64,000 bases of DNA from Dehalococcoidia bacterium. GTDB taxonomy: Bacteria; Chloroflexota; Dehalococcoidia; Lucifugimonadales; GCA-2712585. The stretch covers positions 2,777,798 through 2,841,797 of the forward strand of contig OZ253467.1 in assembly GCA_965261665.1 (NCBI GenBank), written 5' to 3'. Shown here piece by piece: positions 32,109-32,752 of the stretch. Positions within the stretch are counted from its first letter, which is position 1. Each line of letters begins with the position of its first letter. The translations under genes were made by a program, and so were the position numbers. The notes under the pieces were generated by a model that was not told where the DNA came from, ran no database searches, and saw nothing but the letters and a program-made list of their open reading frames with translations.

Positions 32109-32654
32109 TCAGGTTCGCGCCACCCAGTCGTTGATGGACAAGCCAGTGTGCCGGCAGGCATGCAGCACAATCTCTCCGGCTGCCCGGGCATCTTCTACGG
32201 CGTCGTGGTGTCTGAAGGAAATGCCCAGGTCTCCTGCGATTTTGGCTAGACTCCATCTGCGTCTGTATATCTTTGGCCAAGCGCGGCGGGCGATCATGGC
32301 ACTGTCCAACCACGTTGCCTCTATGGAGGCCAATCCGTTCTTCTCCATTGCTCTGTCAAGAGCCACTTTGTCGAAGGACGTATGACTGACGACAACCGTT
32401 TCTCCCAATAAACGACGCAACGTCCCATGCAGTTCGAGCAAAGTCTCACAATTACTTACCGTGCATTCGCTGATTCCGTGGAGCCTGACATTGAAACAAT
32501 TGAAGGGAGCCGCCGGATTTACCAGGATGGAAAAACTCCCACTGATTTTGCCATTCCTGAATTTCACGATACCAATCTGGCAGATGCTGGAAGGGTCTGC
32601 ATTGGCGGTTTCCACGTCAACGGCATTGAATGTTAGGTTAGCCATCTCACTCAT
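32109..32654 (-). CDS. stand-alone DEDDh (DnaQ-like) 3-5 exonuclease, divergent from cas3
   Basis: Exo[10 protein letters not shown], Exo[15 protein letters not shown], Exo[20 protein letters not shown] 32654 is preceded by AAGGAG; the ORF track extends to 32759. Confidence 0.8.
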
Positions 32655-32752
32655 ATATCTCCTTGGGGCATATGATTGTTCTCCACTTCCCAGTTTCAAG
32701 TACAATTCCCATGAATGCAAGAACGGCCCCGCCCAAGAGGTGAGACTAGTAC

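What the first reader, a model, noticed from the sequence alone, without database searches (positions are those of the whole stretch)
32109..32752. Stand-alone DEDDh (DnaQ-like) exonuclease divergently paired with cas3: candidate prespacer trimmer
Seen directly: a 181-aa ORF with ExoI (DVETA), ExoII (HTSFD) and ExoIII (H-x4-D: HHDAVED) motifs starts 98 bp from the cas3 start on the opposite strand, sharing the intergenic region. Cas2 here is a minimal 95-aa protein. Established knowledge: some I-E systems fuse a DnaQ/DEDDh domain to Cas2, and host DnaQ-type exonucleases trim prespacer 3-prime overhangs during I-E adaptation. Inference: this gene may supply that function in trans, which would be relevant to a locus that has accumulated about 360 spacers.
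Basis: partly seen in the sequence, partly recalled or inferred. Interest (0 to 1): 0.6.

Follow-up and report, generated by a model that had tools for sequence, protein, structure and literature searches.

The report
Accessory DnaQ-like exonuclease beside cas3
A small DNA-end-trimming enzyme gene sits back-to-back with cas3 in this and many related Dehalococcoidia type I-E CRISPR loci, so it is a genuine but optional CRISPR accessory gene of a kind already catalogued, and its proposed role in trimming new spacers is still untested.

Summary
Window 32109-32654 (-) encodes a 178/181-aa DEDDh (RNase_T) exonuclease with all five catalytic residues. It lies 98 bp from, and divergent to, cas3 of a complete type I-E system with a 95-aa Cas2 and 359 repeats.

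In the clade of close homologues (Dehalococcoidia/Chloroflexota assemblies), 22 of 26 distinct loci have cas3 sequence next to the gene, usually 100-130 bp away, while the far flank always differs. No relative has tRNA-Val(tac), rsmD, coaD or polA there. Homology to 97%-identical relatives stops exactly at the tRNA-Val 3' end, so the gene belongs to the cas island.

It is optional. About 8 of 11 distinct related I-E loci from metagenomes lack it, and intact copies under purifying selection persist beside decayed or absent cas operons.

It is not a relative of the Cas2-fused DEDDh domains. It descends from an exonuclease+BRCT family, found in several genomes directly downstream of ligA, and has lost the BRCT domain.

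Prespacer 3' trimming in trans is the most plausible function, but it rests only on association and analogy. Stand-alone DEDDh genes are already described as CRISPR ancillary components, so I class this as a new member of a known kind, of moderate interest.

The parts
32109..32654 (-). Stand-alone DEDDh (DnaQ-like, RNase_T family) 3'-5' exonuclease gene. It is 181 aa from ATG 32654; the homologue-supported start is ATG 32645 (178 aa).
   Evidence: ORF and sequence. Pfam RNase_T 1.7e-14. PADLOC CRISPR-associated 'DEDDh' profile 4e-22; catalytic residues invariant. AF2 pLDDT 93.9 with a DnaQ fold.
32655..32752 (.). 98-bp divergent intergenic region shared by the exonuclease gene and cas3. It carries a conserved promoter-like motif for the exonuclease: -35 TTGCAT at 32720-32715, a 17-nt spacer, and -10 GAAACT at 32697-32692 (minus strand). 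A possible cas3 -10 (TACAAT, 32701-32706, plus strand) lies inside that spacer.
   Evidence: gap of about 100-130 bp in most linked loci. CTTG...TT...A.A.T.G is invariant in 9 aligned loci; the generic scan finds a different, weaker candidate at 32699-32672. The promoter role is inference.
32753..35446 (+). cas3 (HD nuclease plus helicase), type I-E.
   Evidence: Cas3_HD 6e-31 and Cas3-like_C_2. PRK09694 6e-99.
35458..40508 (+). Cascade genes: cse1 (35458-37137), cse2 (37134-37745), cas7 (37766-38953), cas5 (38914-39690) and cas6e (39546-40508). ORF starts are approximate.
   Evidence: NCBIfam TIGR02547, TIGR02548, TIGR01869, TIGR01868, TIGR01907.
40542..41818 (+). Adaptation module: cas1e (40542-41534) and a minimal 95-aa cas2 (41531-41818). 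There is no Cas4 and no fused nuclease.
   Evidence: all 120 nearest Cas2 homologues are 94-113 aa with PF09707 only.
41921..64000 (+). CRISPR array with 359 copies of GGTTCCCCCGCACCCGCGGGGATAGACC and 33-bp spacers. It runs off the window and has one 180-bp interruption at 63743-63922.
31912..31988 (+). tRNA-Val(tac). It marks the left boundary of the exonuclease-plus-cas island in this genome.
   Evidence: homology to L001, L002, L006 and L004 stops at 31981-31983, within the shared GCCCACCA.
31989..32108 (-). About 120 bp of non-coding tail downstream of the exonuclease stop codon. It travels with the gene in both cas-linked and orphan copies.
   Evidence: No terminator-like site and no Rfam match.

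Best explanation
The gene encodes an active, single-domain DEDDh 3'-5' DNA exonuclease. It is a lineage-specific, optional accessory gene of a Dehalococcoidia type I-E CRISPR-Cas locus.

It was derived from a two-domain exonuclease+BRCT family by loss of the BRCT domain. It was placed divergently upstream of cas3 early in this I-E lineage and has been co-inherited with cas3 since, with several later losses. It is transcribed from its own promoter in the 98-bp region shared with cas3.

The most likely role is to act in trans on Cas1-Cas2-bound prespacers, trimming their 3' overhangs to the 33-bp integration-ready size. This I-E system lacks both Cas4 and a Cas2-fused nuclease. Host DnaQ and ExoT do this job in E. 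coli, and the fused DEDDh does it in Megasphaera and S. thermophilus I-E.

Shown here: enzyme family, intact active site, conserved linkage, co-divergence, independence from the tRNA-Val neighbourhood, and origin from the BRCT-bearing family. Inferred: DNA substrate, action on prespacers, any contact with Cas1-Cas2, and co-regulation with cas3.
For: - **Enzyme.** RNase_T E=1.7e-14. DEDHD is invariant. The AF2 model has pLDDT 93.9, and its best structural matches are DNA exonucleases: PolC exonuclease domain (TM 0.84), ExoX, DinG exonuclease domain, S. thermophilus Cas2-DnaQ domain and Pol III epsilon. The CRISPR-associated DEDDh profile scores 4e-22.
- **Linkage.** 14 of 16 species-representative genomes with a homologue of at least 60% identity have it next to I-E cas3. 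Five further assemblies do too. One locus reached from the Cas2 side also has it. In total 22 of 26 clade tips are linked.
- **Flanks and spacing.** The far flank is never conserved, and the gap is about 100-130 bp in most linked loci.
- **Co-inheritance.** Exonuclease and Cas3 distances correlate with Spearman 0.80 over 26 loci. Exonuclease-bearing loci include the deepest Cas3 branches.
- **No alternative trimmer in the locus.** There is no Cas4, Cas2 is 95 aa, and none of its 120 nearest homologues is fused.
- **Array.** Spacers are uniformly 33 bp.
- **Precedent.** Published work shows DnaQ-type trimming in I-E and mentions stand-alone DEDDh as an ancillary component (PMC10284694; PMC10470216).
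Against: - The gene sits at the cas3 end of the operon, about 8 kb from cas1-cas2.
- About 8 of 11 distinct related I-E loci from metagenomes lack it and carry unrelated genes upstream of cas3, so it is dispensable.
- Intact copies under purifying selection (dN/dS 0.12-0.28) exist with no adjacent cas operon or with only cas3 fragments.
- It is not related to the Cas2-fused DEDDh lineage.
- Its ancestors look like repair enzymes, with a BRCT domain and, in several genomes, a ligA neighbour.
- No biochemical, expression or interaction data exist.
Confidence: 0.5

Rival explanations
1. It is a Cas3 partner rather than a Cas1-Cas2 partner. The exonuclease acts on the single-stranded 3' ends or flaps produced by the Cas3 helicase-nuclease during interference. 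It either clears the products or converts them into prespacer precursors for primed adaptation, and it is co-expressed with cas3 from overlapping divergent promoters.
For: The gene is always next to cas3, never next to cas1-cas2. The shared intergenic region is compact and conserved, with back-to-back -10-like boxes. Distances co-vary with Cas3. In decayed loci the gene is retained together with the cas3 5' end.
Against: Adjacency alone explains both the retention with the cas3 5' end and the co-variation. No precedent for a DEDDh-Cas3 partnership turned up in the papers searched. Copies persist with cas3 truncated or absent.
Confidence: 0.2
2. It is a general DNA-repair or end-processing exonuclease with no CRISPR-specific role. 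It is merely carried in the variable, mobile-element-rich region upstream of cas3 and is inherited with cas3 by physical linkage.
For: The parent family is exonuclease+BRCT, which lies directly downstream of ligA in six genomes. Orphan copies are under the same purifying selection as linked ones. Many related I-E loci lack the gene. The position upstream of cas3 holds assorted cargo in other loci, including a HigB toxin, a radical SAM protein, DUF3800 and a PLD-like nuclease. Transposases and recombinases are nearby.
Against: The adjacency, orientation and roughly 100-130 bp spacing are kept while Cas3 diverges to 49-66% identity and while the far flank turns over completely. Cas linkage maps only to the BRCT-less forms. 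A neutral passenger would be expected to be lost or displaced as readily as the flank was.
Confidence: 0.2
3. It is an RNA exonuclease (RNase T or oligoribonuclease-like) that acts on crRNA or tRNA 3' ends.
For: The DEDDh superfamily includes RNases. There is a marginal Rv2179c-like exoribonuclease hit (26.9 bits against a cutoff of 27). A tRNA gene lies 120 bp away in this window.
Against: The closest sequence and structure relatives are DNA exonucleases: PolC, DinG, ExoX and epsilon. tRNA adjacency is not conserved. By established knowledge, I-E crRNAs are not 3'-trimmed because Cas6e stays bound to the hairpin.
Confidence: 0.05
4. It is a housekeeping neighbour of tRNA-Val that happens to abut cas3 in this genome only.
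For: tRNA-Val(tac) is 120 bp downstream of the stop codon. One distant, non-cas-linked homologue (L022, 60% identity) lies near a tRNA-Val(gac), but on the other side of the gene.
Against: None of the 23 close loci scanned has tRNA-Val(tac), and none of 85 loci has rsmD, coaD or polA nearby. Homology to the 97%-identical relatives ends exactly at the tRNA 3' end.
Confidence: 0.01

Closest known systems
Stand-alone DEDDh exonucleases listed as ancillary CRISPR-Cas components (the 'DEDDh' profile of CRISPRCasTyper/PADLOC; mentioned in PMC10284694, citing the 2020 Makarova classification)
   Same: A single-domain DnaQ-like DEDDh exonuclease encoded inside a cas locus. It matches the CRISPR-associated DEDDh profile at 4e-22, and its neighbourhood with cas genes is conserved.
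   Different: The fixed divergent pairing with cas3 in one Dehalococcoidia I-E lineage, and the descent from an exonuclease+BRCT family, did not turn up in the papers I could search. No function has been shown for any stand-alone member, as far as the searched library shows.
Cas2-DEDDh / Cas2-DnaQ fusions of type I-E (Megasphaera NM10, PDB 8FY9/8FYC; S. thermophilus DGCC7710, PDB 8H18/8H2F)
   Same: The same superfamily fold and catalytic pentad, the same CRISPR subtype (I-E, no Cas4), and therefore the same plausible task of trimming prespacer 3' overhangs and removing the PAM.
   Different: It is not fused. Cas2 here is 95 aa, and none of its 120 nearest homologues is fused. It lies at the opposite end of the operon. 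In sequence it is closer to the PolC, DinG, ExoX and epsilon exonucleases than to the Megasphaera fused domain (24.7 versus 64 bits). The S. thermophilus domain was not detected by sequence at all and appeared only by fold, at rank 6 with TM 0.73. This indicates an independent recruitment.
Host DnaQ (Pol III epsilon) and ExoT acting in trans on E. coli Cas1-Cas2 prespacers
   Same: A DnaQ-superfamily 3'-5' exonuclease that is not covalently attached to the integrase, in an I-E system (PMC10284694, PMC10470216).
   Different: Those are housekeeping enzymes encoded elsewhere in the genome. This gene is dedicated to and linked with the cas locus. It fails the epsilon equivalog models (TIGR01406: 26 bits against a cutoff of 222) and has no C-terminal polymerase-binding segment.
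Exonuclease+BRCT proteins (about 285-300 aa; nearest NCBIfam model NF004844/PRK06195, named 'DNA polymerase III subunit epsilon')
   Same: This is the best-scoring curated family for the exonuclease domain (93 bits). These proteins are 44-57% identical over the domain, and the C-terminal HTG-x-I-x-GW motif is shared.
   Different: The window protein lacks the BRCT domain, scores far below the family cutoff of 373 bits, and is cas-linked. The long forms are never cas-linked and lie directly downstream of ligA in six genomes.
Cas4 (RecB-like nuclease of adaptation modules)
   Same: The functional niche it would fill: prespacer end processing for Cas1-Cas2.
   Different: The fold and chemistry are unrelated, and Cas4 is absent from this locus.

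Membership tests
DEDDh / DnaQ-like 3'-5' exonuclease superfamily (Pfam PF00929 RNase_T) | Exo I motif D-x-E, Exo II aspartate, and Exo III H-x4-D (the 'h' subtype) | tested here: met
   D13, E15, D95, H150 and D155 are present and invariant in 32 homologues and in 25 of 25 clade members.
DEDDh / DnaQ-like 3'-5' exonuclease superfamily (Pfam PF00929 RNase_T) | Profile match above the curated threshold, and an RNase H-like alpha/beta fold | tested here: met
   RNase_T scores 55.2 bits against a cutoff of 24. The AF2 model has pLDDT 93.9 and matches PolC exonuclease, ExoX, DinG and epsilon with TM 0.72-0.84.
CRISPR-associated stand-alone DEDDh (ancillary cas gene) | Match to the CRISPR-associated DEDDh profile | tested here: met
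   PADLOC PDLC01247 'DEDDh' scores 4e-22, 77 bits. The profile is generic for DnaQ-like domains, so this alone is weak evidence.
CRISPR-associated stand-alone DEDDh (ancillary cas gene) | Conserved genomic association with cas genes across divergent genomes | tested here: met
   22 of 26 clade loci are adjacent to cas3, with the far flank unconserved. The converse is partial: about 3 of 11 distinct related I-E loci carry the gene.
CRISPR-associated stand-alone DEDDh (ancillary cas gene) | Functional contribution to adaptation (prespacer trimming) | not testable with these tools
   This requires biochemistry or genetics.
Cas2-DEDDh fusion (type I-E trimmer-integrase) | DEDDh domain covalently fused to Cas2 | tested here: not met
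   Cas2 is 95 aa with PF09707 only. All 120 nearest homologues are 94-113 aa with PF09707 only. The exonuclease is a separate gene about 9 kb away on the other strand.
Cas2-DEDDh fusion (type I-E trimmer-integrase) | Specific sequence kinship with the Cas2-fused DEDDh domains | tested here: not met
   The profile of the family scores 24.7 bits (E 1.5e-4) on 8FYC. That is below PolC exonuclease (64), DinG (50), ExoX (36) and epsilon (29). The S. thermophilus domain is not found at E<=1.
DNA polymerase III epsilon subunit (DnaQ proofreader) | Equivalog-level match, and a C-terminal segment that binds the alpha subunit | tested here: not met
   TIGR01406 scores 26 bits against a cutoff of 222, and PRK05711 scores 26 against 196. 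The protein ends right after the exonuclease domain at 178-181 aa.
Exonuclease+BRCT family (NF004844 / PRK06195-like) | Full-length match including the C-terminal BRCT domain | tested here: not met
   It scores 93 bits against a cutoff of 373, and only profile positions 2-165 of 309 are matched. BRCT is present in long homologues but absent here and in the whole cas-linked clade.

The most novel reading that the evidence does not exclude
This would be an independent, convergent recruitment of a repair-type DnaQ-like exonuclease into type I-E CRISPR-Cas, from the exonuclease+BRCT family with the BRCT domain lost. It would be wired to cas3 through overlapping divergent promoters and would work at the Cas3 / primed-adaptation interface, converting Cas3-generated 3' ssDNA into integration-ready prespacers, rather than simply substituting for the Cas2-fused trimmer. 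That would make it a natural, dedicated 'in trans' trimmer whose partner specificity can be dissected.
Probability: 0.2. Interest if true: 0.55.

Novelty: new member of a known kind. Interest (0 to 1): 0.38.

Why it matters
Type I-E systems without Cas4 need a 3'-5' exonuclease to size prespacers and remove the PAM. So far this has been shown only for housekeeping enzymes borrowed in E. coli and for Cas2-fused domains.

A dedicated, separately encoded exonuclease that has stayed next to cas3 across a deep I-E lineage would be a natural intermediate between those two solutions. Three features make it a useful experimental system. It is optional, with natural exonuclease-bearing and exonuclease-less sister loci. 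It arose from a different DnaQ branch than the fused domains. It comes with very large arrays.

Such a system could be used to ask how a free trimmer is recruited to Cas1-Cas2 or Cas3, and whether its presence improves acquisition fidelity. If the gene has no CRISPR role, the case is a caution about inferring function from adjacency in mobile defence islands.

Tried and rejected
- **Housekeeping neighbour of tRNA-Val: rejected.** No relative has tRNA-Val(tac), rsmD, coaD or polA beside the gene, and homology to near-identical relatives ends at the tRNA 3' end.
- **Kinship with Cas2-fused DEDDh: rejected on sequence.** Fold comparison does not discriminate, because all DnaQ-like folds score alike at about 21-22% identity.
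- **Pol III epsilon orthology: rejected.**
- **Structured RNA or terminator near the gene: nothing found.** Rfam finds only the tRNA, and no terminator-like site is found.
- **Generic promoter scan: weak.** It gave one weak candidate on the exonuclease strand (32699-32672), and its -10 is not conserved in relatives. The alignment-supported motif is different. It is clear in about 10 of 18 linked loci only, so I treat it as inference.
- **Complementary distribution with another trimmer: not possible.** I wanted to see whether exonuclease-less I-E relatives carry a different trimmer (Cas2 fusion or Cas4).
- **Array size versus exonuclease presence: not possible.** The flanks available are too short.
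- **Literature searches: no specific hit.** Searches for a described cas3-paired stand-alone DEDDh returned only the general statement in PMC10284694 and routine CRISPRCasFinder listings. The 2020 classification paper could not be opened under the PMC id I tried from memory.
- **Deep nodes of the exonuclease tree: unreliable.** The trees are neighbour-joining with no support values. The placement of L095/L040 is uncertain, so the number of recruitment events at the very base is uncertain.

Full report
**1. What is in the sequence**

The minus strand carries an ORF at 32109..32759. Alignment with 31 homologues shows that the conserved N-terminus is M-x-NLTF, which corresponds to a second ATG at 32645 (178 aa).

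The protein matches Pfam RNase_T (E=1.7e-14). It has the DEDDh pentad D13/E15/D95/H150/D155, invariant in all aligned homologues.

An AlphaFold model built on that alignment is confident (pLDDT 93.9). It superimposes on the PolC exonuclease domain (TM 0.84), ExoX, the DinG exonuclease domain, the S. thermophilus Cas2-DnaQ domain and Pol III epsilon, all at about 21-22% identity.

The cas3 ATG is at 32753, 98 bp from the exonuclease ATG and on the other strand. Downstream of cas3 lie cse1, cse2, cas7, cas5, cas6e, cas1e and a 95-aa cas2. They are followed by 359 repeats with 33-bp spacers that run to the end of the window. tRNA-Val(tac) is at 31912-31988.

**2. Is the linkage with cas3 conserved?**

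*Protein search and first contexts.* A protein search found 1274 homologues, and the best 120 are 63-97% identical stand-alone proteins of about 178 aa. The 97% and 82% relatives are also divergent from an I-E cas3, with different far-side genes. A 78% relative instead sits next to a serine recombinase.

*Species-representative genomes.* A scan with the family alignment returned 80 loci. tblastn with the window's Cas proteins showed that 14 of the 16 loci with at least 60% identity have the gene beside I-E cas3. All 16 are Dehalococcoidia/Chloroflexota metagenome-assembled genomes. Thirteen of the 14 have a full-length cas3. One of those (L017) has an inserted gene between cas3 and the exonuclease gene. 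The fourteenth (L010) retains only a 162-aa cas3 fragment.

*Flanks.* None of the 85 loci has rsmD, coaD or polA beyond the exonuclease gene, and the far flank is different in every lineage.

*Further assemblies.* Five additional assemblies gave the same picture:
- three have full I-E loci;
- one has a split cas3 without Cascade;
- one has only a 156-aa HD fragment of cas3.

A locus reached from the Cas2 side, independently of the exonuclease, also has an RNase_T gene divergent from cas3. The gap between the two start codons is about 100-130 bp in most linked loci.

**3. Boundary at the tRNA**

blastn of the window against the 97%-identical relatives (L001, L002, L006) gives continuous homology from the cas genes through the exonuclease gene. 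It ends at window 31981-31983, which is the 3' end of tRNA-Val. The junction shares GCCCACCA. Beyond it the relatives share about 35 bp with each other that the window lacks.

None of the 23 close loci scanned has a tRNA-Val(tac). The exonuclease gene therefore belongs to the cas island, not to the tRNA neighbourhood.

**4. Evolutionary history**

In neighbour-joining trees of the exonuclease domain, all cas3-linked copies are short forms. Twenty-two of the 26 tips of the main clade have cas3 sequence within 2.5 kb. The four exceptions (L004/L005, L007, L009, L023) are nested inside the clade. L007 still carries about 78 bp of the cas3 5' end. It is also a second copy in the same genome as L006.

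More distant homologues (44-57% identity; many phyla, including Proteobacteria, Nitrospirales and Bacteroidota) are about 285-300 aa. They carry a C-terminal BRCT domain. In six loci they lie directly downstream of NAD-dependent ligA, an identification I made from the sequence. None of these long forms is cas-linked.

The cas-linked gene is therefore a BRCT-less derivative of a repair-type exonuclease family.

Scored with a profile of the family, PDB sequences rank as follows:

| PDB sequence | Bits |
|---|---|
| PolC exonuclease domain | 64 |
| DinG exonuclease domain | 50 |
| ExoX | 36 |
| Pol III epsilon | 29 |
| Megasphaera Cas2/DEDDh | 24.7 |

The S. thermophilus Cas2-DnaQ domain is not detected by sequence. 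The gene is thus not a detached version of the Cas2-fused domain but a separate recruitment.

**5. How obligatory is it?**

A metagenome scan seeded with the Cas3 N-terminal domain returned 18 loci of the same Cas3 clade, at 49-62% identity. Only L088/L089, L091 and L095/L096 (three distinct loci) have the exonuclease gene upstream. About eight distinct loci with enough upstream sequence do not.

Those loci carry unrelated genes at that position: a HigB-like toxin, a radical SAM protein, DUF3800 and a PLD-like protein.

In a Cas3 tree, the loci without the exonuclease are nested at three or four places among loci that have it, and the deepest branches have it. Pairwise exonuclease and Cas3 distances correlate with Spearman 0.80 over 26 loci. 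The p-value is inflated by shared ancestry.

The simplest reading is an old linkage, co-inheritance, and repeated loss. Conversely, exonuclease genes next to decayed or missing cas operons remain intact. The catalytic pentad is present in 25 of 25 copies, and dN/dS is 0.10-0.28 for every pair that could be computed (one pair had saturated dS). That range includes pairs of two orphan copies. Orphan-bearing genomes can still have an I-E locus elsewhere (L006/L007; L022/L113). The orphan copies therefore do not exclude a CRISPR role in trans.

**6. Regulation (inference)**

Nine loci share a spaced motif in the exonuclease orientation: CTTGCR, a 17-nt spacer, then rAAACT followed by TG. Columns C-T-T-G, T-T, A, A, T and G are invariant. 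In the window the -35 is at 32720-32715 and the -10 at 32697-32692.

The conserved ATTGTA/ATTTTA inside the spacer reads TACAAT/TAAAAT on the cas3 strand (window 32701-32706), 46 nt before the cas3 ATG. This suggests overlapping divergent promoters.

The motif also accompanies orphan copies (L004, L007). The generic scan did not report this site; it reported a weaker one instead. The motif is not evident in all linked loci. I treat it as a lead only.

**7. Function**

Shown here:
- an intact DNA-exonuclease-like DEDDh enzyme;
- conserved, directional and ancient linkage to an I-E locus that lacks Cas4 and any fused nuclease.

From established knowledge: I-E Cas1-Cas2 needs 3'-5' trimming of prespacer overhangs. 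In E. coli this is supplied by DnaQ and ExoT. In Megasphaera and S. thermophilus it is supplied by Cas2-fused DEDDh (PMC10284694; PMC10470216).

Inference: this gene supplies that activity in trans. I rate this at about 0.5. The rivals, each about 0.2, are a role with Cas3 and a CRISPR-independent repair gene that hitchhikes in a mobile defence island.

**8. Novelty**

[quoted passage not shown] The CRISPR-associated DEDDh profile used by typing tools matches this gene.

The finding is therefore a new member of a known kind. The added points did not turn up in the papers I could search:
- the fixed divergent pairing with cas3 in a Dehalococcoidia I-E lineage;
- descent from an exonuclease+BRCT family, independent of the fused domains;
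- the optional and repeatedly lost character of the gene.

Interest is moderate.

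Noticed in passing
window 31981-31988, with L001 about 8665-8700 and the matching regions of L003, L006 and L007: Homology between the window and its near-identical relatives stops exactly at the 3' end of tRNA-Val. All copies share GCCCACCA at the junction. The relatives then share about 35 bp with each other (TGGTGGGCCRAAGKGTRCTGTAYTGCGAAC, in the exonuclease orientation) that the window lacks. This suggests the cas-plus-exonuclease island has a defined end and has recombined into or next to tRNA-Val here.
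   Followed up: partly
window 63743-63922; also 55902-56663 and 63043-63436: The CRISPR array is interrupted by 180 bp of non-repeat sequence and then resumes, which could mean a second leader or an insertion. It also contains perfect internal duplications of multi-spacer blocks: a 366-bp unit repeated 2.1 times at 100% identity, and a 183-bp unit repeated 2.2 times at 100%.
   Followed up: no
L028, L034, L052, L069 (Pseudomonas putida QH1), L071 and L077, around positions 7300-10900: Long homologues (exonuclease plus BRCT, about 285-300 aa) lie immediately downstream of NAD-dependent DNA ligase ligA. In L028 and L034 an SMC-like gene lies upstream of that. In seven other loci a conserved uncharacterised 138-aa protein (no Pfam match) lies next to the gene. 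Together these look like a possible uncharacterised ligase-associated end-processing module.
   Followed up: partly
L007 9815-10000; L010 9383-9871; L105 2531-4887; L110/L111 4390-4860: Several genomes keep an intact exonuclease gene together with only a 5' fragment, or a split version, of cas3, and no Cascade genes. The cas operon decays while the exonuclease gene and the shared intergenic region survive.
   Followed up: partly
L113 1-191 (same chromosome as L022): Upstream of cas3 in this I-E locus, the 191 bp available translate on the opposite strand to ...ANLALNAVGVRPANAG. This resembles the exonuclease N-terminus but with the catalytic D and E replaced (G and R). An intact unlinked copy (60% identity) lies elsewhere on the chromosome next to tRNA-Val(gac). 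It is possibly a decayed linked copy replaced by an unlinked one.
   Followed up: partly
L011 20043-20238: A second, partial, inverted copy of the exonuclease gene lies about 10 kb from the cas3-linked copy.
   Followed up: no
L003 2926-4824; L004 9334-12300: In L003 the cse1/cse2 position of the I-E operon is occupied by a 632-aa repeat-rich protein with a signal-peptide-like N-terminus and no Pfam match. This protein is related to a 988-aa protein lying near the orphan exonuclease copy in L004. The cas3 of L003 is a 1019-aa chimera that matches the window Cas3 only over about its first 535 residues.
   Followed up: no
L001 4814-5005; L104 1869-2063; L112 1884-2060; window 35447-35548: Relatives have a small ORF (58-84 aa, no Pfam match) in a spacer of about 460 bp between cas3 and cse1. 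The window has only about 107 bp there and lacks that ORF.
   Followed up: no
L086-L103, the 1-4 kb upstream of cas3: In related I-E loci without the exonuclease gene, the position upstream of cas3 holds varied cargo: a HigB-like toxin (L086/L087), a radical SAM protein (L093/L094), DUF3800 (L100/L103) and a PLD-like protein (L090). It behaves like a variable defence-island slot.
   Followed up: partly
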